Assembly (NCBI GenBank): GCA_050951805.1 | Contig: JBMNJT010000002.1 | Coordinates: 96,001-160,000 of the forward strand | Direction: 5' to 3' | Source: Bacillota bacterium | Lineage (GTDB): Bacteria > Bacillota > DTU025 | Length of the DNA stretch: 64,000 nt | Shown here: piece by piece, positions 4,351-14,290 of the stretch | Layout: each line of letters opens with the position of its first letter | Position numbering within the stretch: position 1 is the stretch's first letter | The notes under the pieces: model-generated | What the model was told of the DNA's origin: nothing | What the model saw: the letters and a program-made list of their open reading frames with translations, nothing else | Databases searched by the model: none | Program-made: the position numbers and the translations under genes

Positions 4351-5430
4351 GTGGACAGCTTTCCGACTTGGGGAAGATACTATCTCCCCGCTGATGCCCT
4401 CATCAGACGACATATTGAGAGCAGTCTGGCGTGGACGTTCGAAGCCCGGGGCTACGAAGAGATAGTCCCGCCGCTGCTGGTGGGGTTGGATATGGCTGTA
4501 CTCGACTCGAGTGGTTCGACCTTTACCAATGGCCTGGCTGGGGCAGAGAAGCCATACGCAGTCCTTGCAAGGGATGGCAGCTTCTTTGCCCTGCGGTCTG
4601 ACATGACTGTCCCTGTTGCAGCTCTGGCAGTGCGCCACCTCTTGCCATCGGAAAGTCCTGTCCGCCTCTATTACTCAGGCAGCGTCTTTCGCCCCCAGAA
4701 GGCGGGAAATGGAAAACCGGAGGAGCGGCGCCAGTTTGGCGCTGAGCTGATCGGGACAGACGCTGCAGACAGCGTCAAAGCCGATTGTGAGATTCTTGCC
4801 ATGGCTGCCGAAGGGCTAATCAACACAGGAGTGCGGGACTTTTGCATCGGCCTGAGCGACGCTAAGCTCTTCTTGGCCATGCTCGATGCAGCACGGGTCG
4901 AGGATGATGCGAAAGATGCCATCTGGTCAGCGCTGGCATCACGAGACTATGTCCGCTATGGCGAGCTCGTATCGTCCCTCGATGACGGCGGCGATCCTCA
5001 GAAAGCCCTCGGAATCGATCTTCTCAAGCGCTTGCTTGCCCTAGAGTCAACAGAGGAGTCGCTCGATGCGCTCAGGAGGGCAGGGGTCTGCGATGCAGCT
5101 TCCGAGCTTATCAGGATACTTGATGTCTTGGAAGAGAGGGGTTTGGGCAAGTGCTTTCGTCTCGACCTGTCCATAGTCCGGGAATTTCGGTACTACACCG
5201 GAGTCGTGTTCGAGGGATATGCCGTTGGGTGCGCAAATGCCGTGATCGGCGGTGGACGGTACGACAAACTGCTGGCGCGATTTGGGTCGTCTGCGCCCGC
5301 AGCGGGTTTGGCTGTGGATGTGGACGCCGTGGTGTCGGCTTTGCAAGCAGTAGAAGGAGGTGAGCGTCGATGGAACAGGTATCTGTGGCCCAACGCACGC
5401 CCGTGCGCGAAAGTGAGGTCGCGTCACTAA
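4351..5430 (+). CDS. hisZ: ATP phosphoribosyltransferase regulatory subunit
   Basis: HisRS-like motifs ALRSDMTVPVA, RLYYSGSVFR, QFGAELIG, YYTGVVFEGY, GGGRYDKLL; directly precedes the short hisG. Confidence 0.92.
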   Translation: MDSFPTWGRYYLPADALIRRHIESSLAWTFEARGYEEIVPPLLVGLDMAVLDSSGSTFTNGLAGAEKPYAVLARDGSFFALRSDMTVPVAALAVRHLLPSESPVRLYYSGSVFRPQKAGNGKPEERRQFGAELIGTDAADSVKADCEILAMAAEGLINTGVRDFCIGLSDAKLFLAMLDAARVEDDAKDAIWSALASRDYVRYGELVSSLDDGGDPQKALGIDLLKRLLALESTEESLDALRRAGVCDAASELIRILDVLEERGLGKCFRLDLSIVREFRYYTGVVFEGYAVGCANAVIGGGRYDKLLARFGSSAPAAGLAVDVDAVVSALQAVEGGERRWNRYLWPNARPCAKVRSRH

Positions 5431-6119
5431 ATCTAGGGAACTGTCTCAGCATCGCGCTTCCCAAAGGTCGATTGCTCCAGCCATCGCTGGATGCCCTGGC
5501 GGAAGCGGGACTTCAAGTTCCAAGCATGGATGAGATAGACAGAAGACTCATCTACACGACGGGTGACGGCAGTATGCGGTTCATTCTTGCCCGCCCTGCG
5601 GATGTGCCAGCATATGTCGAACATGGCGCTGCCGACCTAGGGATAACCGGAAAGGATGCGTTGCTCGAAGGCGATTGGGGCGTTTGCGAACTCGTCGACT
5701 TAGGTTTTGGGAGATGCCGCTTGGTTGTTGCAGCGCTTCAGGGGGCGATTGCCCCAGATGGCTGCGGCTCTGAGGGGGCCGTCTGCAAGCTGCCTTTGCC
5801 GCGTAGTGGCCACACTCTACGGGTAGCCACCAAGTTTCCGGCCATTGCCAGACGCCACTTTGCGCTGAAACGGGATCTATGCGTCGAGATCATCAAGCTC
5901 AATGGGGCTGTGGAGATTGCTCCTATTGCGGGGCTTTCCGACGTAATCGTGGACATAGTGGACACCGGCCGTACATTGGCCGACAACGGGCTTGTGCCAA
6001 TAGAGGAGGTAGCGCAGTTATCAGCGAGGCTCATTGCGAATCGCGCGAGCCTCAAGCTGAAATCTACAGTCATCCATCAGATTGCGTCGGCGCTTTGTGA
6101 TCGAAGCCGCAGCATCTGA
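5370..6119 (+). CDS. hisG: ATP phosphoribosyltransferase, short form
   Basis: IALPKGRL, DVPAYVEHGAADLGITGKD, VATKFP, DIVDTGRTL; no C-terminal regulatory domain; RBS AAGGAGGTG. Confidence 0.95.
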   Translation: MEQVSVAQRTPVRESEVASLNLGNCLSIALPKGRLLQPSLDALAEAGLQVPSMDEIDRRLIYTTGDGSMRFILARPADVPAYVEHGAADLGITGKDALLEGDWGVCELVDLGFGRCRLVVAALQGAIAPDGCGSEGAVCKLPLPRSGHTLRVATKFPAIARRHFALKRDLCVEIIKLNGAVEIAPIAGLSDVIVDIVDTGRTLADNGLVPIEEVAQLSARLIANRASLKLKSTVIHQIASALCDRSRSI

Positions 6120-6217
6120 CGGACTTAGGCATCGAGCAGACAGATGGATTGCTGTAAAGCTGAGGCGAGGTTTATGGCCATTAAAACATGCCAATGCCAG
6201 GAGGTGTTGAGGCGAAG

Positions 6218-7516
6218 ATGAATACGCCAATCGGGATAAAGACTATTGCAGCTTGCGACTACTTGCAGCAACGAATCCGTCGAGGGCCTGAGGACTTCGA
6301 AGAGGTTGAGCAGAAGGTTCGCCCCATCATTGAAGACGTCCGAAGACGCGGTGACCAGGCTGTGCTCGACTACACCGCGCAGTTCGACGGTGCAGATTTT
6401 GTGCCAGAAAGCATTGAGACCACGAGCGCCGACATTGATCACGCCTACTCTGTGGTGGATCAGGGCGTTGTAGAGGCTCTCCGGAAGGCGGCCGACAATA
6501 TTCGGTGCTTCCACGAGCGGCAGGTACAGCAGACTTGGGCGTGCATTCTGGATGATGGAGCCATCATGGGGCAGGCAATCCGACCAATAGAACGGGTTGG
6601 CATCTACGCGCCTGGCGGCGCCGCGGCCTACCCGTCCTCTGTGCTCATGTGCGCGGTACCTGCCCGGATAGCCGGGGTGCAGAGCGTGATTGTCTGCACT
6701 CCACCTGGTCCCGGTGGCGTTGCCAACCCCTATGTGCTCGTGGCGGCCGACATCGTTGGCGTCGACAAGGTGTTCAAGGTTGGGGGATGTCAGGCCATCG
6801 CGGCGATGGCTTTTGGCACCGAGTCCGTCTGTGCAGTAGACAAAATCGTGGGACCGGGCAATGCTTATGTGACTGCAGCCAAAAGGTTGGTCTTTGGCTA
6901 TGTGGACATCGATATGCTCGCCGGACCGAGCGAACTTGTCGTGCTAGCAGACATGTCCGCCGACCCGCGCTTCGTGGCGGCGGACATGCTTTCTCAGGCT
7001 GAGCACGGTCCTGACTCGGAAGCCATATTGGTGACAACCAGATGCGAGGTTGCCGCGAGTGTTGTCCGCGAAATAGCCGTTCAGGTTGAGTCCCTGTCTC
7101 GTCGCGATACGATTATACGTTCTTTAAGCGAACACGGCCTTATCATAATCGCCGACGATCTCGACCAGGCTGTAGACGTGGTAAACCGCTATGCCCCTGA
7201 ACACCTTGAAGTGATGGTGGACGATCCCCATGCCCTTCTCAGTCGGCTGCGCAACGCCGGCAGCATACTGCTAGGTCCGCTCACGCCGGTGGCGGCCACC
7301 GACTACGCCGCCGGACCGAACCATGTATTGCCCACAGGTGGCACAGCTCGCAGTGGATCGCCTCTTTCAGTTCGGGATTTTGTGAAGATACAGAACATCA
7401 CATCGCTTACGCGGGTTGCACTAGACGATATGATGGATGCCGCCGAGACCATCGCAGCAGTCGAAGGGCTGGATGCTCACGCAGCTGCCCTTGGGGCAAG
7501 GAGGGTAGGATTATGA
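6218..7516 (+). CDS. hisD: Histidinol dehydrogenase
   Basis: GIYAPGG, KIVGPGNAYV, IDMLAGPSE, SQAEHG, APEHLE, GPNHVLPTGG. Start at 6218 or 6188. Confidence 0.96.
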   Translation: MNTPIGIKTIAACDYLQQRIRRGPEDFEEVEQKVRPIIEDVRRRGDQAVLDYTAQFDGADFVPESIETTSADIDHAYSVVDQGVVEALRKAADNIRCFHERQVQQTWACILDDGAIMGQAIRPIERVGIYAPGGAAAYPSSVLMCAVPARIAGVQSVIVCTPPGPGGVANPYVLVAADIVGVDKVFKVGGCQAIAAMAFGTESVCAVDKIVGPGNAYVTAAKRLVFGYVDIDMLAGPSELVVLADMSADPRFVAADMLSQAEHGPDSEAILVTTRCEVAASVVREIAVQVESLSRRDTIIRSLSEHGLIIIADDLDQAVDVVNRYAPEHLEVMVDDPHALLSRLRNAGSILLGPLTPVAATDYAAGPNHVLPTGGTARSGSPLSVRDFVKIQNITSLTRVALDDMMDAAETIAAVEGLDAHAAALGARRVGL

Positions 7517-8691
7517 TAGCCTCAGTTGCCGGGAGAGGAGGCGCCAATGAACGGGATATGGGTTCGGTGGCCGAGTTCGCCAGGCCTGAACTTCAAGGGC
7601 TTCGAGCTTGCGTGCCTGATTGGCATGGCGTCAGAGTCAAACTTGACAGCAACGAAAGCCCCTTCGATCTCCCTGCATGCATAAAGGAAAATGCCCTGAG
7701 GAAGTTGCGGGAGATCCCGTTCAATAGGTACCCTCAAGGGCTGGCGGCGAAGCTCAGGGAGACGATTGCATTCCGCGACGGGGTCAGCGAGACACAGGTG
7801 ACCCTCGGCAACGGGCTGGACGAGGTAATCTACATTATCCTGCAGGCTTTTGGACCAGGCAGGAAAGTAATAATCCAGAAGCCCTCTTTTACTACGTATA
7901 CCTATGCGGCTCTTTCCGCTAGCGCTGATATCCGGGCAGTTCCCCTCGACGAGGGACTGCGCTTGAGCACAGCGGGGCTTATCGAAGAGGCGAATGCTGC
8001 CGAGTCGCCTTGTATCTTGATCATATGCAACCCTCACAACCCTACCGGAGGGCGGTTTATGGAGGAAGACATCGTGGATGTGCTCGAAGCTACGAATTCC
8101 ATGGTCATAGTCGACGAGGCATACGTGGAGTTTTCGGGCGGAAGCGTTCTCCCGTTGGTTGCTGAGTATGATCGACTGATCGTGCTGCGGACGTTGTCAA
8201 AGGCTTTCGGGTTGGCCGGGGTGCGTGTCGGGTACTCCGTGTCGAGCTCTGAGATCGCTGCCGAGTTGGACCGGATCAGGCAGCCGTTCAACCTCGACTC
8301 GCTTGCCTTGGTTGTTGCTCAGACCGCTCTGGAAAACGACAACTATTGCCGGGAAGCGGTCGTCCGCATTGTCGAAGAGCGCGAGCGGCTTTTGGGCCGC
8401 CTTGGAGAAATTCACGGAGTGACCTGTTTCCCGTCTTGTACGAATTTCATTCTGTTTAGGACAACGATGCCAGATGCAACGATGGTCAGAGATGCTCTTC
8501 GTCGGTATGGCGTATCTGTTCGCGTGTTTCCCGATGAGCCCATGCTTCGCGGGTGCCTGAGGGTGAGCTGTGGGACAAAGGAAGAGGACGACGCATTCCT
8601 GGAGGCTTTGGAGAAGGTGTTGGCAGAAGCAAACCAAACGTCCGCCGGTCTTCGTGACGACGACGGAAAAAGGATTGAGGGTGGTGAGTAG
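7513..8691 (+). CDS. hisC: Histidinol-phosphate aminotransferase
   Basis: KLDSNESP, NRYP, CNPHNPTG, VDEAYVEF, PLP lysine in RTLSKAFGLAGVRVGY. Confidence 0.94.
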   Translation: MIASVAGRGGANERDMGSVAEFARPELQGLRACVPDWHGVRVKLDSNESPFDLPACIKENALRKLREIPFNRYPQGLAAKLRETIAFRDGVSETQVTLGNGLDEVIYIILQAFGPGRKVIIQKPSFTTYTYAALSASADIRAVPLDEGLRLSTAGLIEEANAAESPCILIICNPHNPTGGRFMEEDIVDVLEATNSMVIVDEAYVEFSGGSVLPLVAEYDRLIVLRTLSKAFGLAGVRVGYSVSSSEIAAELDRIRQPFNLDSLALVVAQTALENDNYCREAVVRIVEERERLLGRLGEIHGVTCFPSCTNFILFRTTMPDATMVRDALRRYGVSVRVFPDEPMLRGCLRVSCGTKEEDDAFLEALEKVLAEANQTSAGLRDDDGKRIEGGE

Positions 8692-8692
8692 G

Positions 8693-9307
8693 ATGCCCAA
8701 ACCGAGACTGGCCGAAGTGCACCGCAAGACATCGGAGACATCAGTCGAGCTGAGGTTGATCCTCGACGCTGCCAGAGACCATGGCTGCTCTGGCAGTCAT
8801 CAGGCGAACATCTCAACTTGCTGCGGATTCTTTGATCACATGCTCAGGCTGCTGGCATTTCATGCCCAGTTTAGCTTGGATCTTCATGCCACGGGAGACA
8901 TCGAAGTCGACTATCACCATCTTGTGGAAGATGTGGGCATCTGTATCGGCGAGGCATTCTGCGAAGCGCTAGGCGACAAGCAAGGCATTGCGCGCTTTGG
9001 CAGCGCCCTTGTGCCAATGGATGACGCTTTGAGCATGGCCGTCGTGGATCTGTCGGGGCGTCCATTCCTTCATTTCAATGTGTCCATGCCATGCGCGAAG
9101 GTTGGCGATTTCGATACAGAGCTGGTGGAAGAGTTCATGCGGGCTTTGGCAAGTAACGGGAAGTTCACATTGCATGTAGACCTGCTCCACGGGTGGAACA
9201 CGCACCATATCATAGAATCTGTCTTCAAGGCGGTGGCTCTTGCATTGAGGCAGGCCGCGGCAGCAGGAGACACGTCTTCGATTCCGTCCACGAAAGGGGT
9301 GTTGTAG
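8693..9307 (+). CDS. hisB: Imidazoleglycerol-phosphate dehydratase (monofunctional)
   Basis: RKTSET, FFDHML, DYHHLVED, PMDDA, NTHHIIESVFKA, PSTKGVL; ATG immediately after the hisC stop. Confidence 0.95.
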   Translation: MPKPRLAEVHRKTSETSVELRLILDAARDHGCSGSHQANISTCCGFFDHMLRLLAFHAQFSLDLHATGDIEVDYHHLVEDVGICIGEAFCEALGDKQGIARFGSALVPMDDALSMAVVDLSGRPFLHFNVSMPCAKVGDFDTELVEEFMRALASNGKFTLHVDLLHGWNTHHIIESVFKAVALALRQAAAAGDTSSIPSTKGVL

Positions 9308-9308
9308 G

Positions 9309-10880
9309 ATGCTAGTGCTTCCGGCTATAGATATCCACAACGGAAAGTGTGTTCGCCTGTTTCAGGGAGACTTTGCGAAAGTCACCGAGTATTCCGATGA
9401 CCCGTGCCAAACTGCCCGGCGATGGGCGAACATGGGCGCTCAGATGCTGCACGTGGTCGATTTAGACGGAGCCCGGCAAGGTATGCCGGTAAACTTGGAG
9501 GTTGTGCGCGGCATCATAGCCCACACTGGTCTTCCTGTACAAGTGGGCGGAGGTTTCAGAACTCCGAAGGACGTCGAATCGGCCCTTGAGGCTAAAGCGG
9601 CGCGAGTCATCCTAGGGACTGCGGCCTGTAGCGACCCGGCAATGCTCCGCGACCTTGTTAGGAGATTTGGCGAGGATAGGATCGTGGTGAGTATAGATTC
9701 CAACTGCGGTGCAGTTATGACAGATGGATGGGTGCGAGCCTCCGGCATCGCTCCTTCAGAACTTGTCGAGCGCGCCCTGGACTCTGGGATCCAGACAGTC
9801 ATTTGTACTGATGTGTCTCGAGACGGCACTTTGGCCGGGGTTAATGTTGATTCCATCGCTCAGCTGTTGTCGGCAGGCGCAAACGTTATAGTTGCAGGCG
9901 GAGTCAGTTCGATCCAGGATCTTCGTCAGCTGAAAGGCCTGGAAAGCCAGGGAGTGAGCGGAGTCATCATCGGCCGCGCTCTGTACACTGGCGCGATCAG
10001 ATTCCGAGATGCGTTGAGAGCGGCAGGAAGCAGGAGAATCATTCCTTGCCTTGACACGAAGGACGGCCGCGTGGTGAAGGGGGTTAACTTCGAGAATCTG
10101 AGGGATGCAGGCGACCCCGTTGGATTGGCTGAGATCTATGAGAGCCAGGGAGCTGACGAGCTGATGTTGCTCGATCTGTCTGCTACTGCTGAGGGACGCA
10201 GGACTGCCCTGGATCTTGTGGGCCGGGTCGCGTCTGCCGTCTCGATTCCCCTTTCAGCGGGCGGGGGCATCACAAGCCTCGATGATGTCGGGCGAGTTCT
10301 CGATGCCGGCGCGTCAAAGGTGTGCATCAACTCTGCAGCGGTGCGAAACCCTCAGTTGCTCCAGCATGCGGCGAAGGCTTTCGGGGTTGACCGGATCGTC
10401 TCCGCCATAGATGCATCCGCCATTGCGGAGCCATTTTTGGATGCAGGCAACAGACATGGCGATCGTGATGTCAACGACATCGTAAGCATCGAGGTTGACA
10501 GCAAGAACGATGGTAATGGTGACGGCTGTGGCAGGTGGGTTGTGTGCACATTCGGGGGCAAGCAACGCACGGATCTCGATTTGATTGAATGGGCTCGCAC
10601 CGTTGAGCGGCTGGGGGCAGGCGAAATCCTCCTCACGTCTGTGGATAGAGACGGGTCGACGGACGGCTACGACTTGCGGCAGCTGCGGGCCGTGACCCAA
10701 GCGGTGGGCATTCCTGTGATCGCGTCGGGCGGTGCAGGAACACCTGAGCATTTCCGCGATGCGTTCGTGGAAGGCGGAGCTGATGCTGCCCTTGCAGCCT
10801 CGGTCTTCCACTTCGGAACGCTGAGCGTGGGAGATGTAAAAAGACACCTCAAGCGGGAAGGAGTTGACGTCAGGTTATGA
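9309..10880 (+). CDS. hisA-hisF: Fused HisA (ProFAR isomerase) and HisF (IGP synthase cyclase), 523 aa
   Basis: About aa 1-240 is HisA (PAIDIHNGKCVRL, LHVVDLDGA, QVGGG, TDVSRDG, GRALY). The rest is HisF (RIIPCLD, VVKGVNF, GDPV, DELMLLD, GEILLTSVDRDG, PVIASGGAG, AALAASVFH). No stop, RBS or ATG at the junction. Confidence 0.93.
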   Translation: MLVLPAIDIHNGKCVRLFQGDFAKVTEYSDDPCQTARRWANMGAQMLHVVDLDGARQGMPVNLEVVRGIIAHTGLPVQVGGGFRTPKDVESALEAKAARVILGTAACSDPAMLRDLVRRFGEDRIVVSIDSNCGAVMTDGWVRASGIAPSELVERALDSGIQTVICTDVSRDGTLAGVNVDSIAQLLSAGANVIVAGGVSSIQDLRQLKGLESQGVSGVIIGRALYTGAIRFRDALRAAGSRRIIPCLDTKDGRVVKGVNFENLRDAGDPVGLAEIYESQGADELMLLDLSATAEGRRTALDLVGRVASAVSIPLSAGGGITSLDDVGRVLDAGASKVCINSAAVRNPQLLQHAAKAFGVDRIVSAIDASAIAEPFLDAGNRHGDRDVNDIVSIEVDSKNDGNGDGCGRWVVCTFGGKQRTDLDLIEWARTVERLGAGEILLTSVDRDGSTDGYDLRQLRAVTQAVGIPVIASGGAGTPEHFRDAFVEGGADAALAASVFHFGTLSVGDVKRHLKREGVDVRL

Positions 10881-11590
10881 TTGAACGATTGGAATCGGAT
10901 GATGGCGAAAGCCTGGAAGGATGGATAGACACGCTCAAATTCGGTGCAGATGGACTGATTCCCGCTGTCATTCAGGAGAGTGTGACTGGCCAGGTGCTGA
11001 TGGTCGGATACATGAATCGCCAGTCCATCGAAATGACGCTCCGTGAAGGCCGGACATGTTTTTGGAGCAGGAGCCGCCAGAGGCTGTGGACCAAGGGAGA
11101 GACTTCCGGACATTTCCAGAAAGTGCGGGCGGTCTTCTGCGACTGCGACCGCGACTGCTTGCTCATAGAGGTTGACCAGACGGGCGAGGCTTGTCACTTG
11201 GGCCGAAAGTCCTGTTTCTTTACGCAGTTATGGGGCAGTGCAGATGCTGCTGGGACCGGGTTCAGTCTGGATAAGCTCTACGAAACAGTGGAGGATAGAA
11301 AGGCAAGCCAACCGGAAGGTTCGTACACGGCCAAGTTGATCCGATCCGGGCAAGACCGAGTGCTGAAAAAAGTGGCTGAGGAGGCCGGCGAAGTGATGCT
11401 GGCTTCCAAGAACGACGACAGAGAGGAGATCATCAGGGAGATGGCGGACTTGTGGTTCCATTCCATCGTCGTTTTGGCATACCACGATATTCCTCCGCAG
11501 GCGATCCTGGACGAGTTGGCCGATCGTCACAGTAATGCGCGGAAAGCGGAAAGCTTGTGCACAGAAAGAAAAGAGGGCCCTGGATACTGA
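10877..11590 (+). CDS. hisIE: Bifunctional phosphoribosyl-AMP cyclohydrolase / phosphoribosyl-ATP pyrophosphatase
   Basis: WSRSRQRLWTKGETSG, DCDRD, ACHLGRKSCF, then SYTAKL, KKVAEEAGE, EMADLWFH. Confidence 0.95.
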   Translation: MIERLESDDGESLEGWIDTLKFGADGLIPAVIQESVTGQVLMVGYMNRQSIEMTLREGRTCFWSRSRQRLWTKGETSGHFQKVRAVFCDCDRDCLLIEVDQTGEACHLGRKSCFFTQLWGSADAAGTGFSLDKLYETVEDRKASQPEGSYTAKLIRSGQDRVLKKVAEEAGEVMLASKNDDREEIIREMADLWFHSIVVLAYHDIPPQAILDELADRHSNARKAESLCTERKEGPGY

Positions 11591-11630: not shown

Positions 11631-13145
11631 TTAGATGTTGTCGGAGCCTACGGACTGCAATAGCCTGGACTTTGCCATGAAGCATGCAGCCAGTTGATAG
11701 GCGAGATCGGACTCGGCTTTGCGCACTGCGTCTATAGCTTCTGAGACTTCTGCATACGCGACTGCGCCAATACGGCATTGCTCCTCTCTTATGTCCAATG
11801 TTGCCGTGGCGATGGCGACAGCCAAACGCGCCAGCTCGACCGATGACTCTGCTTCGCGAAGATTGTAGAATGCTTCAACTACTTCAAGGAGTATGGAATC
11901 CCTTGTTTCGACGGCATTTGCTTTAGCCTGTTCCACTCGGCCTTTTGCGGACTCGATGGCGATCTCTGCAGCGTAATCCCTAGTAAGCAGTGCGGAGACC
12001 TCTAGGCCCACGCGCCAGTGTCCCCCGGATGACGCTTGCCCTTGGAAAAAGACATCCGGGCGTTTGGCCGCAATCGCTTGAGCGAGGGCAGCCTCGGCAT
12101 CTGCGACATCTTGCTCTGCCATGGGAATTTCGGGCCTCGTTTCGAGCGCCGCCCGCGTACAGGTGTCGAGATCCAGGTCTTCAGGCCATCTCACATACTC
12201 TCCGGCCGGCGCGAGGTGCACTAAAGTTTCCAGGTCTCTGCCTATAGCACGGTTAAAGCTGATGGAAGCAATAGCCAGATTGTGCCGGGCAGATTGAGCT
12301 GCCGCTTCGGCTCTGTCGGCGCCGGCCTTTGCTTCTAGTGCATCAAGTTCGCTTGCGTTCCCCGCAGAACATCGCCCCTCCACGAAAGCCGCATGAGTGC
12401 GGGCACGCGAGAGACCGCGGTCAGCGGCGGCGACTCGGTCTTCCGCTGCAAGGAGATTGAAGTATGCGGCCTGCGCTGAAGCACGCGCTTGGCGTATCGA
12501 CTGGTCGAGCTGGAACTGAGCACTCCGCAATTGAGACTGGGCAGAGCTTGTTGAGCTTGGGGCCTCGCCCGGGGAGCTAGCGCCGAGTATGGGCAGGGAC
12601 AGGCTTGCACTGCCGTTCCAGGCGCTTTTGCCCGATAAGGCCGGGTCTGAAAATGCAAAGGATGCGGTGGCCGACAATGAAAGGCTCCCGCCACCCAGCG
12701 GAATCCGCACGTCTCCGCCAGCTTGCGAAAGCGCATACATGGACGTCTCGCCTTTTCCCATCGGTTTGCTGTCTTCTTCGACGACACTCTGGACACTTAG
12801 CGGCCCAATCCCTATTTGCAGAGGTGCGGCATGGACCGTTATAGAAGGCCGCTTTTGAGCTTCGGCAGCCTGGAGCTGAAGCATTGCGAGCTCCACAGCG
12901 CGCTTGGCCGAAGCGACCGATGGCGAGGAGGATTCGGCCAGGCGCATTACATCTTCCATGGTCAGAGCCAGACTCTCGTCGGCGTGTGATGCGCCTAGAG
13001 AAGAATCCGCAGCAAAGGTGCATGGTGCAAGGGCGAGGAGTAACATCACAACGCAGATACAGATGTCTGCAGCTCTACGGCTGAACGGAACCGTGACAAA
13101 AGCCGTCTGCCGCTGCTGGCTTTTGTGTTGAGCAGTCTGGCTCAT
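11631..13145 (-). CDS. TolC-family outer membrane efflux protein
   Basis: Signal peptide; two OEP repeats (LTMEDVMRLA; AYFNLLAA; ALETRPEI; VVEAFYNL) with short beta-strand segments. Confidence 0.8.
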   Translation of the reverse strand: MSQTAQHKSQQRQTAFVTVPFSRRAADICICVVMLLLALAPCTFAADSSLGASHADESLALTMEDVMRLAESSSPSVASAKRAVELAMLQLQAAEAQKRPSITVHAAPLQIGIGPLSVQSVVEEDSKPMGKGETSMYALSQAGGDVRIPLGGGSLSLSATASFAFSDPALSGKSAWNGSASLSLPILGASSPGEAPSSTSSAQSQLRSAQFQLDQSIRQARASAQAAYFNLLAAEDRVAAADRGLSRARTHAAFVEGRCSAGNASELDALEAKAGADRAEAAAQSARHNLAIASISFNRAIGRDLETLVHLAPAGEYVRWPEDLDLDTCTRAALETRPEIPMAEQDVADAEAALAQAIAAKRPDVFFQGQASSGGHWRVGLEVSALLTRDYAAEIAIESAKGRVEQAKANAVETRDSILLEVVEAFYNLREAESSVELARLAVAIATATLDIREEQCRIGAVAYAEVSEAIDAVRKAESDLAYQLAACFMAKSRLLQSVGSDNI

Positions 13146-14290
13146 CGGGGATCACCAGGCTCAGCCTCTTCGGCCGGATAGTTTGCCCAGGCATCAAAGT
13201 GCAGTCGGGCGATGTTGTAGCTCATTATCGATTGAAGCTCGGAGAGCCTGGCCTCGGTGAGGCTCAACTGCGCTCCCAAGAGTGAATTGGCGATTTCCAT
13301 GCCGTGCTCGTAACGGAGCTTCATTATTCTGTAGTTTTCCTCTGCCTGTTTGGTCGCGGCTGAGGCGATTGAAATCGCCCTGTGGGATTCCTCAAGCGAC
13401 AGATACATCTGCCGGGCTTCAACTCGCACTCCGCGCTCAGCCTGGCCTGCGGCGAGCCTGGCCTGTGCCAGAGCATTATTGAGCTGCCGCTTGGTCAGTT
13501 CGGGAGTGTATTCGTTATCTGCGAACTTCGCTTCGAGCTCGCAGATCTCCAGGGTTTCTCGGGCCTTGACGATCTCCGGGCGATTCTTCAAAGCAAGGGC
13601 GAGTGCGGCTTCGTAGTCAACATCTCCGGCAATTGGCTGGGCTGAATCGATCGCAATGACAGGTGTGTCAAGGTCCATGCCTAAGGTGCGCTTTAGGGCC
13701 AGTTGTGCCAGTTCAAGATGGTTTTTGGCAGACAACGTCGAGGTTACTGCCTGCTCCAGAGCGATTTCAGCTGACATGACATCCATCTTGCTTGCCAGGC
13801 CGGCTTCGAATCTAAGACGAACGATTCGCAGGCTTTCCCTGGCCTGTTCTTCGGAGGCATGTATTATGTTGGCACGCTCTTGCGCTGTCACAAGATTGTA
13901 GTAGGCCTCGTCTACATCGAGCATGAGGGATTGTTCTTTTGCGACAAGGGCACGTCTAGCGTCCCGTCTGGCGCCGGCTGCGCGTTTGGAGGCGATCACG
14001 GATGGCCTTATGAGGGCATCTGCCTCTGCCATCTGGAACTGGATTTCGGATGCTTCGAACTCGAGCACTGCCATGGCATAATCATAGCTGTGGTCAATCG
14101 CGTAGCTGCGCGCTTCATCCAGGGTCAATTCCAAGGGCTCAGGCTGAGCTACTGCGCATAGCCCGCCGGATCCGGAGAGGGCGAGAAGCGCCAGAATGGC
14201 CATGGTTATGGCTAGAGGTGACTGTCGGAAATGCCGGGCGTGAGCGGGATTTTTCAACCTCAAACTTTTGGAAAGCGGTTTGATTGTCAT
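13142..14290 (-). CDS. TolC-family protein (shorter, mostly helical)
   Basis: Signal peptide, LTLDEARSYA, VDEAYYNLV, RFEAGLASKMDV, ALKNRPEI, RYEHG; overlaps the next TolC gene by 4 nt. Confidence 0.8.
   Translation of the reverse strand: MTIKPLSKSLRLKNPAHARHFRQSPLAITMAILALLALSGSGGLCAVAQPEPLELTLDEARSYAIDHSYDYAMAVLEFEASEIQFQMAEADALIRPSVIASKRAAGARRDARRALVAKEQSLMLDVDEAYYNLVTAQERANIIHASEEQARESLRIVRLRFEAGLASKMDVMSAEIALEQAVTSTLSAKNHLELAQLALKRTLGMDLDTPVIAIDSAQPIAGDVDYEAALALALKNRPEIVKARETLEICELEAKFADNEYTPELTKRQLNNALAQARLAAGQAERGVRVEARQMYLSLEESHRAISIASAATKQAEENYRIMKLRYEHGMEIANSLLGAQLSLTEARLSELQSIMSYNIARLHFDAWANYPAEEAEPGDPR

What the first reader, a model, noticed from the sequence alone, without database searches (positions are those of the whole stretch)
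9309..10880. HisA-HisF fusion without HisH-coupling residues in an operon lacking hisH: candidate ammonia-dependent IGP synthase
Seen: hisB ends at 9307 and the next ORF starts at 9309, leaving no room for hisH at its usual position, and none is in the window. HisA and HisF form one frame joined by ALRAAGSRRIIPCLD with no leftover start. In the HisF half, GADK reads GASK (Ser at 10314-10316) and FGSQ reads FGVD (Asp at 10389-10391). The catalytic Asp residues (CLD, AID) and the gate residues R5/E46/K99/E167 (T. maritima numbering) are kept. Established: HisF D98 and Q123 lie at the HisH interface and couple to the glutaminase; HisF alone can use free ammonia in vitro; the HisF N-terminus lies on the HisH-docking face. 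Inference: this enzyme has lost HisH, takes NH3 directly (plausible in ammonia-rich anaerobic habitats) and may channel PRFAR between the two barrels.
Basis: partly seen in the sequence, partly recalled or inferred. Interest (0 to 1): 0.85.

Follow-up and report, generated by a model that had tools for sequence, protein, structure and literature searches.

The report
Fused histidine enzyme lacking glutaminase partner
A real two-in-one histidine-pathway enzyme in a biogas-reactor bacterium whose genome has no glutamine-splitting partner for it, so it most likely takes ammonia directly, as many of its relatives also seem to do.

Summary
ORF 9309-10880 is one 523-aa HisA-HisF protein in a complete his operon. 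It scores above the curated cut-offs for both HisA and HisF. The D98->Ser and Q123->Asp changes are as described, and the catalytic and gate residues are kept. No hisH was found in the 97%-complete genome or in any of 12 genomes of its family.

hisH loss goes with erosion of the HisH-contact residues. In a blind column scan of 59 HisH-partnered against 17 HisH-less HisFs, Q123 and D98 were the two best discriminators. Over 41 HisH-less HisFs, 34 have lost Q123.

The genome also lacks glutamine synthetase, GOGAT and Amt, keeps glutamate dehydrogenase, and its GMP synthetase has lost its glutaminase domain. It comes from anaerobic digesters. Direct use of ammonia is therefore the best reading, but it is not shown biochemically.

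The fusion is not linked to hisH loss. HisA-HisF fusions are common in metagenomes: 87 of the 120 best homologues keep Q123, eight genomic fusions have hisH directly upstream, and HisH-HisA-HisF triple fusions exist. PRFAR channelling could not be tested.

HisH-independent HisF is already known from C. glutamicum, E. coli suppressors and ant endosymbionts. This is a new variant of a known kind.

The parts
4351..5430 (+). hisZ-like gene (HisRS paralogue, regulatory subunit of short HisG); first gene of the his operon
   Evidence: Pfam tRNA-synt_His 1.7e-57. The name hisZ is my reading from its position before hisG.
5370..6119 (+). hisG, ATP phosphoribosyltransferase (longest ORF; the true start may be later)
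   Evidence: Pfam HisG 1e-49
6188..7516 (+). hisD, histidinol dehydrogenase
   Evidence: Pfam Histidinol_dh 3e-166
7513..8691 (+). hisC, histidinol-phosphate aminotransferase
   Evidence: Pfam Aminotran_1_2 1.9e-55; operon position
8570..9307 (+). hisB, imidazoleglycerol-phosphate dehydratase. This is the longest ORF; the likely start is the ATG at 8693, right after the hisC stop (inference).
   Evidence: Pfam IGPD 1.3e-62, domain from residue 83 of the long ORF
9309..10880 (+). hisAF, a single 523-aa frame: HisA half (residues 1-240) plus HisF half (241-523)
   Evidence: dN/dS is 0.10-0.19 among 6 family members. AF2 pLDDT 92.7, pTM 0.85.
9309..10028 (+). HisA (ProFAR isomerase) half; D8 invariant and D130 at least 90% conserved in 115 fusions
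   Evidence: TIGR00007 368.9 bits vs cut-off 228.95; conserved columns
10011..10055 (+). Junction ALRAAGSRRIIPCLD (residues 235-249): the end of HisA helix 8 runs straight into HisF strand 1, with no start codon and no spacer
   Evidence: A contig of run X17 covers 9975-10512 without gaps.
10029..10880 (+). HisF (IGP synthase cyclase) half; catalytic D249 (=D11) and D368 (=D130) are invariant
   Evidence: TIGR00735 385.7 bits vs cut-off 294.55; PDB HisF 1e-87; invariant columns
10314..10316 (+). Ser336 at the position of HisF D98, the salt-bridge partner of HisH K181
   Evidence: Alignment. Role of D98: passages of PMC8115485 and 10.64898/2026.05.29.728626.
10389..10391 (+). Asp361 at the position of HisF Q123, an interface residue
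   Evidence: It is the best discriminating column between HisH-partnered and HisH-less HisFs.
10422..10529 (+). Lineage-specific insertion (residues 372-407), Asp/Asn/Gly-rich, predicted disordered, after strand 5 of the HisF half
   Evidence: Gap in all PDB alignments. Measured over fusion residues 371-407, the stretch is 37 residues here, against 0-25 in the other close relatives (P0002-P0018, P0038) and 3 in most typical fusions. pLDDT is below 50 at 376-393 and 400-404.
10877..11590 (+). hisIE (PRA-CH + PRA-PH); overlaps the hisAF stop by 4 nt
   Evidence: Pfam PRA-CH 3.9e-34, PRA-PH 1.3e-22

Best explanation
The gene encodes a bifunctional enzyme for steps 4 and 5 of histidine synthesis. 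The HisA half isomerises ProFAR to PRFAR. The HisF half converts PRFAR plus ammonia to imidazole glycerol phosphate and AICAR.

There is no glutaminase subunit, and the ammonia is free NH3/NH4+ from the cell. The organism lives in anaerobic digesters. It appears to assimilate nitrogen through glutamate dehydrogenase only, with no glutamine synthetase, GOGAT or Amt found. Its GMP synthetase has also lost its glutaminase domain. hisH was therefore lost as dispensable, and the HisF surface residues that exist only to couple to HisH (D98, Q123, and position 124) have drifted.

Shown: gene structure, absence of hisH, residue changes and their co-occurrence with hisH loss, purifying selection, habitat, and absence of GS.

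Inferred: that NH3 is the substrate in vivo, and by which route it reaches the active site. It could pass through the now exposed R5/E46/K99/E167 gate or enter directly from the catalytic face.

The HisA-HisF fusion is a separate and common event. It probably fixes stoichiometry or proximity for the labile PRFAR (inference).
For: - Domain identity and intact catalytic residues.
- No HisH in the genome by three methods.
- No HisH over the cut-off in 12 of 12 family genomes, six of them (G000, G001, G003, G004, G005, G007) at least 93% complete.
- Purifying selection: dN/dS 0.10-0.19 in 15 pairs.
- Blind column scan of 59 HisH-partnered vs 17 HisH-less HisFs. Q123 (0.98 vs 0.00) and D98 (1.00 vs 0.29) are the two top columns, while 44 catalytic or binding columns are at least 95% identical in both groups.
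- 24 further HisH-less HisFs: 17 have lost Q123.
- Phylum sample of 151 genomes at least 90% complete: 31 of 132 HisF-bearing genomes lack HisH.
- All 13 GS-less genomes that have HisF lack HisH, against 0 GS-less among 101 genomes with both HisF and HisH.
- Own genome: no GS, no GOGAT (68), no Amt (53), GDH present (67). GuaA is the synthetase domain only, directly after hpt.
- guaA_Nterm was not found, but guaA_Cterm was found, in 10 of 12 family genomes and in HisH-less G023, G026 and G029.
- Habitat: 17 runs holding at least half of the sampled words; the 14 studies on record cover all 20 holding rows. By record the runs are anaerobic-digester, sludge, bioreactor or biogas metagenomes, apart from one run without an organism name and two under a coded name.
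- Precedent in print (passages read): C. glutamicum delta-hisH grows on ammonium medium and its hisF complements E. coli delta-hisH (PMC3896937). E. coli delta-hisH is suppressed by his-operon amplification or hisF overexpression (PMC13540730).
Against: - No enzyme assay or growth test exists for this protein, so ammonia use is an inference.
- The cell still needs glutamine. PurQ and a GATase-bearing 537-aa protein that I read as PyrG are kept. Glutamine scarcity alone therefore does not force hisH loss.
- The charged gate R5/E46/K99/E167, usually discussed as part of the HisH-HisF channel, is fully kept here. That would also fit an unknown partner.
- 7 of 41 HisH-less HisFs keep Q123. Three of them (G131, G164, G173) keep D98, Q123 and C124. 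The residue signature is therefore not universal, and some 'losses' may be assembly gaps.
- 18 of 31 HisH-less genomes do have a GS hit.
- Kin are not independent. Only 1 independent pair lies on well-supported branches and 8 on the best tree, so no formal significance was reached.
Confidence: 0.7

Rival explanations
1. The HisF half still receives ammonia from a glutaminase, but from a different one than HisH. Candidates are the 241-aa Peptidase_C26/GATase protein at G000:C2:768516-769241, a moonlighting PurQ, or an unrecognised protein docking on the same face.
For: - A class-I GATase of unknown role exists (Pfam Peptidase_C26 195 bits; below every NCBIfam cut-off).
- The ammonia gate R5/E46/K99/E167 is conserved.
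- GuaA also lacks its own glutaminase, so a shared glutaminase could in principle serve both.
Against: - The would-be docking residues are not re-fixed. They vary among close relatives: position 98 is S/R/C/A/F/T and position 123 is D/E/N/H. That looks like relaxed constraint rather than a new interface.
- No extra conserved gene sits in the his operon.
- No GS was found, so glutamine is not made de novo.
- The review PMC3896937 (passage) argues that glutaminase activity needs a perfectly matching HisF/HisH pair.
- I did not test whether the C26 protein co-occurs with HisH-less HisF.
Confidence: 0.12
2. The his operon is a decaying remnant. With hisH gone the pathway no longer works, and the organism takes up histidine.
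For: - The genome lacks several biosynthetic functions: no CarB, no GS, no GOGAT.
- In Aerococcus viridans, another HisH-less genome, the hisF match carries an internal TGA.
Against: - All the other his genes searched for (hisZ, G, D, C, B, AF and IE) are intact and tightly packed. A histidinol-phosphate phosphatase was not looked for.
- dN/dS is 0.10-0.19 across genera, with dS up to more than 1.
- Catalytic and phosphate-binding columns are at least 95% conserved in HisH-less HisFs.
- The frame is kept in 5 further genomes of the family and in 17 close metagenome proteins, P0001-P0017.
- Contigs of a metatranscriptome run lie on parts of the gene. This is a weak hint, because DNA carry-over is not excluded.
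Confidence: 0.06
3. hisH exists but lies in the unassembled 3% of the genome, or is too divergent to detect.
For: - Completeness is 97%, not 100%.
- Three HisH-less genomes of the phylum sample keep a fully canonical D98/Q123/C124 HisF and may be such cases.
Against: - 0 of 12 family genomes have it. Independent assemblies would all have to miss it.
- Its usual slot between hisB and hisA is closed: one base separates stop and start.
- The HisH-contact residues are eroded.
- The family model found HisH in 14 of 14 control genomes, archaea included.
Confidence: 0.03

Closest known systems
Heterodimeric imidazole glycerol phosphate synthase HisF-HisH (T. maritima, E. coli)
   Same: The HisF half is an ordinary HisF by sequence (1e-73 to 1e-87 to solved HisF chains). 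It has catalytic D11/D130, both phosphate sites and the R5/E46/K99/E167 gate.
   Different: There is no HisH gene. D98 (salt bridge to HisH K181; passages) and Q123 are replaced. HisA is fused to the N-terminus. There is a 36-residue insertion after strand 5.
Corynebacterium glutamicum HisF (delta-hisH strain grows on ammonium; PMC3896937, passages read)
   Same: HisF does the fifth step without a glutaminase in vivo, with ammonia as the proposed donor.
   Different: C. glutamicum still has a functional hisH. Here the gene is gone in a whole family and the interface has eroded. The C. glutamicum result is cited there as unpublished observations.
E. coli delta-hisH suppressors and hisF overexpression (PMC13540730, passages read)
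   Same: They show that HisF alone can supply histidine if enough enzyme is made.
   Different: That is a laboratory rescue needing 10- to 30-fold amplification. Here it is the natural, single-copy state.
hisH pseudogenes in Blochmanniella ant endosymbionts (PMC12779916, one passage read)
   Same: A natural loss of hisH with hisF kept. The authors also propose that high ammonia makes this possible.
   Different: Those are reduced endosymbiont genomes. Here the organisms are free-living anaerobes, spread over many families, with a documented residue signature and loss of GS. Their Figure S5 (a supplement) was not seen.
HisA-HisF fusions of Bacteroidales and of metagenomes; HisH-HisA-HisF triple fusions
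   Same: The same domain order, HisA then HisF, in one frame.
   Different: 8 of 8 genomic cases have hisH directly upstream and keep D98/Q123. 87 of the 120 best homologues keep Q123. P0098 and P0115 carry the GATase in the same chain. These fusions arose independently of the window's clade in the HisF tree.
Eukaryotic HIS7 / bacterial HisH-HisF fusions
   Same: A fusion involving HisF in the same pathway.
   Different: The opposite logic: HIS7 ties the glutaminase to HisF, whereas this protein has dispensed with it. HisH-HisF single frames were seen in two Phycisphaerae loci (L083, L101).

Membership tests
HisA, ProFAR isomerase (NCBIfam TIGR00007) | Whole-protein score above the curated cut-off | tested here: met
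   368.9 bits vs 228.95, residues 3-234
HisA, ProFAR isomerase (NCBIfam TIGR00007) | Two catalytic Asp at the ends of strands 1 and 5. Which residues these are is recalled, not taken from a call. | tested here: met
   D8 is invariant and D130 at least 90% conserved in 115 fusions
HisF, cyclase subunit of IGP synthase (NCBIfam TIGR00735) | Whole-protein score above the curated cut-off | tested here: met
   385.7 bits vs 294.55, residues 242-522. The genome search gave 318 bits for the HisF part alone.
HisF, cyclase subunit of IGP synthase (NCBIfam TIGR00735) | Catalytic D11 and D130; position in a his operon | tested here: met
   D249 and D368 are invariant. The gene lies between hisB and hisIE.
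Glutamine-dependent heterodimeric IGP synthase (HisF-HisH) | A hisH gene in the genome | tested here: not met
   Best TIGR01855 score 25.3 bits vs cut-off 105.4. My own HMM and tblastn hit only PurQ. 0 of 12 family genomes have it.
Glutamine-dependent heterodimeric IGP synthase (HisF-HisH) | HisF residues that couple to HisH: D98 and Q123 | tested here: not met
   Ser336 and Asp361. In HisH-partnered HisFs, D98 is kept in 59 of 59 and Q123 in 59 of 60.
Glutamine-dependent heterodimeric IGP synthase (HisF-HisH) | Ammonia gate R5/E46/K99/E167 | tested here: met
   All four are kept. The gate is named in a passage of 10.64898/2026.05.29.728626.
HisH-independent, ammonia-using HisF (functional class, as for C. 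glutamicum) | Cyclase activity or growth with NH4+ and without a glutaminase | not testable with these tools
   Only indirect support: the genomic context and habitat
WbuZ / HisF2 glycosyl-amidation paralogues (TIGR03572, NF038364) | Score over the cut-off, a paired HisH2/WbuY gene, and a polysaccharide-cluster context | tested here: not met
   TIGR03572 gives 331.8 bits vs 299.7, but summed over 3 stretches of both barrels and below the HisF score. NF038364 gives 283.9, under its cut-off of 310. No HisH-like neighbour; the context is the his operon.

The most novel reading that the evidence does not exclude
Anaerobic Bacillota that have lost glutamine synthetase have repeatedly dismantled their glutamine amidotransferases. 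They shed HisH and often also the glutaminase domain of GMP synthetase, and they run these steps on free ammonia. The freed HisF surface then evolves convergently. Q123 is lost, position 124 turns Arg/Lys in many lineages, and in some lineages the R5/K99/E167 gate is rebuilt. That could be adaptation for taking up bulk NH3 rather than mere decay. On this reading the window's enzyme belongs to a widespread, unrecognised class of naturally ammonia-dependent IGP synthases.
Probability: 0.45. Interest if true: 0.7.

Novelty: new variant of a known kind. Interest (0 to 1): 0.55.

Why it matters
Textbooks and annotation tools treat IGP synthase as an obligate HisF-HisH pair. GapMind, for example, scores hisF and hisH as two required steps (passage). 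Genomes like this one would therefore be called histidine auxotrophs.

In the sample here, 31 of 132 HisF-bearing genomes of the phylum lack HisH. Every GS-less genome with a his pathway is among them. If HisF works on ammonia in these organisms, three things follow:
- Metabolic reconstructions of digester and gut anaerobes are systematically wrong at this step.
- Nature offers many HisF variants tuned, or at least tolerated, for direct ammonia use. These would serve studies of ammonia channelling and allostery, and glutamine-independent histidine production, as discussed for C. glutamicum in PMC3896937.
- Loss of glutamine synthetase becomes a testable predictor of which amidotransferases can shed their glutaminase.

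The fusion itself matters less, because it is common and mostly co-exists with HisH.

Tried and rejected
- **Fusion causes or requires hisH loss.** Rejected. G004, G005 and G006 lack hisH and have separate genes. Fusions with hisH next door and triple fusions exist.
- **A short linker marks HisH-less fusions.** Rejected. Fusions that keep D98/Q123 have junction lengths of 11-62 residues by my measure, several of them at or below the 20 of this protein.
- **HisH-less HisFs are one clade spread by transfer.** Not supported. On a quick LG+G4 tree of 111 rows the Q123 state changes at least 14 times, but deep branches are weak, with 28 of 105 starred.
- **Formal phylogenetic test of HisH against Q123.** treekit independent_pairs found only 1 pair on starred branches and 8 on the best tree, so there is no usable p-value. 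I report counts only.
- **Geometry of the two barrels and PRFAR channelling.** The AF2 model is confident, but no coordinate file is exposed. Whether HisA covers the HisH face or the active sites face each other was not determined. I did not run fold search or complex prediction, since neither gives that geometry and I claim no binding.
- **Expression.** Contigs of a metatranscriptome run (X18) lie on 9291-9495, 9647-9840 and 10623-11153 only. Holes prove nothing and DNA carry-over is possible.
- **Other glutaminases.** No SNO/PdxT. PF00117 gives only two hits. I did not scan the 537-aa protein and read it as PyrG by eye.
- **Literature.** Searches found no paper describing natural bifunctional HisA-HisF proteins or a GS/hisH co-loss. 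The phrases 'hisA-hisF fusion', 'fused hisA' and 'HisA-HisF fusion protein' had 0 occurrences among the 15 of 563 matching papers that were listed. 'hisAF' had 0 occurrences in PMC8305728 and PMC1963479. The library omits most subscription journals. Klem & Davisson 1993, Rieder 1994 and Chioccioli 2020 were seen only as citations.
- **Supplements.** None were opened. Figure S5 of PMC12779916 and Table S4 of PMC13540730 may bear on the precedents.
- **Not done:** a phylum-wide count for the GuaA domains (only the 41 relatives were counted), and the co-occurrence of the C26 protein with HisH-less HisF.
Full report
**What is there**

The window holds a compact his operon on the + strand: a HisRS-like hisZ (4351-5430), hisG, hisD, hisC, hisB (ending at 9307), a 523-aa ORF (9309-10880) and hisIE (10877-11590). 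One base separates the hisB stop from the next ATG, so there is no room for hisH at its usual place.

The 523-aa ORF carries two His_biosynth domains. It passes the curated NCBIfam cut-offs of both HisA (368.9 vs 228.95 bits) and HisF (385.7 vs 294.55 bits).

- D98 is Ser336.
- S122/Q123 are Val360/Asp361.
- R5, D11, E46, K99, D130 and E167 are kept.

AlphaFold2 models it with pLDDT below 50 in an otherwise confident model (mean pLDDT 92.7, pTM 0.85).

**Is the fusion real?**

- Contigs of two DNA runs span 8800-11300 with only 3 and 6 substitutions and no indel. One of them, X2, may be the source of this DNA; X14 is from another study.
- A contig of a third run covers 9975-10512, across the junction.
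- Of the 9 substitutions inside the gene, 6 are synonymous.
- The same single frame is present in five other genomes of the family (G001, G003, G007, G009, G011) and, cut by contig ends, in two more. It also occurs in 17 close metagenome proteins.
- Pairwise dN/dS among six family members is 0.10-0.19.

The gene is real and under purifying selection.

**Is hisH really absent?**

The HisH family model finds nothing over its cut-off in the 97%-complete genome (best 25.3 bits, which is PurQ), while it hits all 14 control genomes. A HisH HMM that I built from five relatives hits only PurQ among all ORFs of 60 aa or more. tblastn finds only the same region.

Class-I GATase domains in the genome are few:
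- PurQ;
- a 537-aa protein that I read as CTP synthase, by eye and not scanned;
- a 241-aa Peptidase_C26 protein of unknown role.

No genome of the family has HisH over the cut-off (0 of 12).

**Fusion and hisH loss are separate events**

- Within the family, genera g1 and g2 have the fusion. G004, G005 and G006 have separate, adjacent hisA and hisF, yet also lack hisH. hisH loss is therefore wider than the fusion.
- A scan of species genomes found eight HisA-HisF single frames: seven in records titled Porphyromonadaceae, Prevotella(ceae), Bacteroidales or Bacteroidetes, and one untitled. All eight have hisH directly upstream and keep D98 and Q123.
- Among the 120 best database homologues of the fusion, 87 keep Q123, 32 do not and 1 is truncated.
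- Two proteins (P0098, P0115) are HisH-HisA-HisF in one chain.

HisA attached to the N-terminus of HisF is thus compatible with HisH, and junction length does not separate the two kinds.

**Do D98/Q123 track HisH?**

I collected HisFs whose partner status is known: HisH adjacent or in the genome, against no HisH in the whole genome or HisH only beside a second HisF paralogue. In a scan of all columns of the HisF half, with 59 partnered against 17 partner-less sequences, the two most discriminating columns were Q123 (98% vs 0%) and D98 (100% vs 29%). Meanwhile 44 columns, including D11, K19, D130, D176 and both phosphate sites, are at least 95% identical in both groups.

| Partner status | Q123 kept | Q123 lost |
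|---|---|---|
| HisH present | 59 | 1 |
| HisH absent | 0 | 17 |

Adding 24 more HisH-less HisFs from a phylum sample, 17 have lost Q123 and 7 keep it. Three of those seven keep D98, Q123 and C124 and may be recent losses or assembly gaps. Overall, 34 of 41 HisH-less HisFs have lost Q123 and 23 of 41 have lost D98.

The replacing residues differ even among close relatives (S/R/C/A/F/T at 98; D/E/N/H/P/A at 123), which looks like relaxed constraint. Position 124 turns Arg/Lys in many lineages, and some lineages also change R5, K99 and E167.

On a quick HisF tree the partner-less type is scattered, with at least 14 changes. Deep branches are weak, however, and a paired test had only 1 well-supported pair. 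I therefore give counts, not a p-value.

Passages read confirm the known roles. fD98 pairs with hK181 and moves towards the glutaminase site on activation. fQ123 lies in the interface cluster. fR5/fE46/fK99/fE167 form the ammonia gate.

**How common is this?**

In an evenly drawn sample of 151 genomes of the phylum (at least 90% complete), 132 have HisF and 102 have HisH. 31 have HisF without HisH, spread over about 20 families, and one has HisH without HisF.

Outside the sample, the complete genome of Amphibacillus sp. Q70 and an Alkaliphilus MAG also lack HisH. Aerococcus viridans lacks it too, but its hisF match has an internal TGA. Three genomes (G013, G043, G044) have HisH only next to a second HisF copy, while their other HisF is of the partner-less type: in G013 it lies in the his operon, in G043 and G044 its context was not examined. 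In G013 that second copy has Gln at D130.

**Why ammonia?**

The own genome gave these results:

| Function searched | Result |
|---|---|
| Glutamine synthetase | none by family search; none by phmmer/tblastn with a type I and a type III-like GS of the same family |
| Glutamate synthase (GOGAT) | none |
| Amt transporter | none |
| CarB | none |
| Glutamate dehydrogenase | present |

Its GMP synthetase is the 332-aa synthetase part only and starts 6 nt after hpt. The same-family genome G004 has the full-length enzyme.

In the 41 relatives, the GuaA glutaminase domain is not found, although the synthetase domain is, in 10 of 12 family genomes and in G023, G026, G028 and G029.

In the phylum sample, 14 of 151 genomes lack GS. 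Thirteen of these are HisF-positive and HisH-negative, and the fourteenth has no HisF. None of the 101 genomes with both HisF and HisH lacks GS. The converse does not hold: 18 of the 31 HisH-less genomes have a GS hit.

That such reactors are rich in ammonia is my own knowledge and comes from no call.

**Known background**

From passages read:
- Isolated HisF uses ammonia in vitro.
- S. typhimurium and E. coli hisH mutants are auxotrophs.
- C. glutamicum delta-hisH grows on ammonium medium, and its hisF complements E. coli delta-hisH (unpublished observations cited in PMC3896937).
- E. coli delta-hisH is suppressed by 10- to 30-fold his amplification or by hisF overexpression (PMC13540730).
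- hisH pseudogenes in Blochmanniella were suggested to be tolerated at high ammonia (PMC12779916).

HisH-independent HisF is thus an established possibility.

My searches found no description of natural HisA-HisF bifunctional proteins or of a GS/hisH co-loss. The library lacks most subscription journals, and supplements were closed.

**Verdict**

The best reading (about 0.7) is a bifunctional HisA-HisF that runs the cyclase step on free ammonia, in an organism whose nitrogen metabolism is built on ammonia. The rivals are less likely: an unknown glutaminase partner (about 0.12), a decaying pathway (about 0.06) and an unassembled hisH (about 0.03).

The fusion is a common, independent feature. 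PRFAR channelling remains untested, because the model's coordinates could not be read.

This is a new variant of a known kind. The wider pattern — recurrent natural loss of HisH with a residue signature, tied to loss of glutamine synthetase — is the part worth following up.

Noticed in passing
G000:C2:775981-776982 (locus L132 781-1779), outside the window: GMP synthetase is a 332-aa synthetase-only protein (guaA_Cterm 475.5 bits) that starts 6 nt after hpt. The glutaminase domain is cleanly missing, while same-family G004 has the full-length enzyme. The same state (C-terminal part found, N-terminal part not) occurs in 10 of 12 family genomes and in G023, G026, G028 and G029.
   Followed up: partly
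whole genome G000: No glutamine synthetase, glutamate synthase, Amt ammonium transporter, CarB or PdxT was found; glutamate dehydrogenase is present. In a sample of 151 genomes, all 13 GS-less genomes that have HisF lack HisH.
   Followed up: partly
window 10422-10529 (residues 372-407): An Asp/Asn/Gly-rich insertion in the HisF half. Over the measured stretch (fusion residues 371-407) it is longest in this genome: 37 residues, against 0-25 in the other close relatives and 3 in most typical fusions. It is predicted disordered and its role is unknown.
   Followed up: partly
L112 3193-4581 (G026); L153 1763-3322 (G157); also G080, G119, G156: HisF-HisIE single frames (His_biosynth + PRA-CH + PRA-PH, Pfam-confirmed in G026 and G157) in HisH-less lineages. 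G080, G119 and G156 have 461-466-aa HisF frames that were not scanned. G026 and these three also have Lys at R5 and Ser/Ala at E167; G157 keeps R5 and E167.
   Followed up: partly
proteins P0098 (776 aa), P0115 (700 aa), P0102 (687 aa): Metagenome proteins with GATase + HisA + HisF in one chain, and HisA + HisF + HisIE in one chain.
   Followed up: partly
L083 5167-6762 and L101 5278-6780 (Phycisphaerae MAGs): Single frames of about 500-530 aa that match both HisH and HisF, a HIS7-like bacterial fusion.
   Followed up: no
L121 (G013:C18), L127 (G043:C50), L128 (G044:C274): HisH sits next to a second HisF copy, away from the genome's other HisF (in G013 that one lies in the his operon). In G013 the copy has Gln at catalytic D130 and Glu at D98, and is probably a WbuY/WbuZ-type amidation pair.
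   Followed up: partly
L126 (G042, Aerococcus viridans, C1:41969-42715): The hisF match has an internal TGA in a genome without HisH. It is a possible pseudogene, unlike the intact genes of the window's family.
   Followed up: no
L049 (Nitrospiria MAG): The one exception among 60 HisH-partnered HisFs: hisH is adjacent, but position 123 is Ser.
   Followed up: no
window 11631-14290 (- strand): Two adjacent long ORFs (504 and 382 aa), rich in Ala/Glu/Leu, with signal-peptide-like N-termini. They look like TolC-type outer-membrane factors, which would be unusual for a Bacillota genome. This was read by eye only.
   Followed up: no
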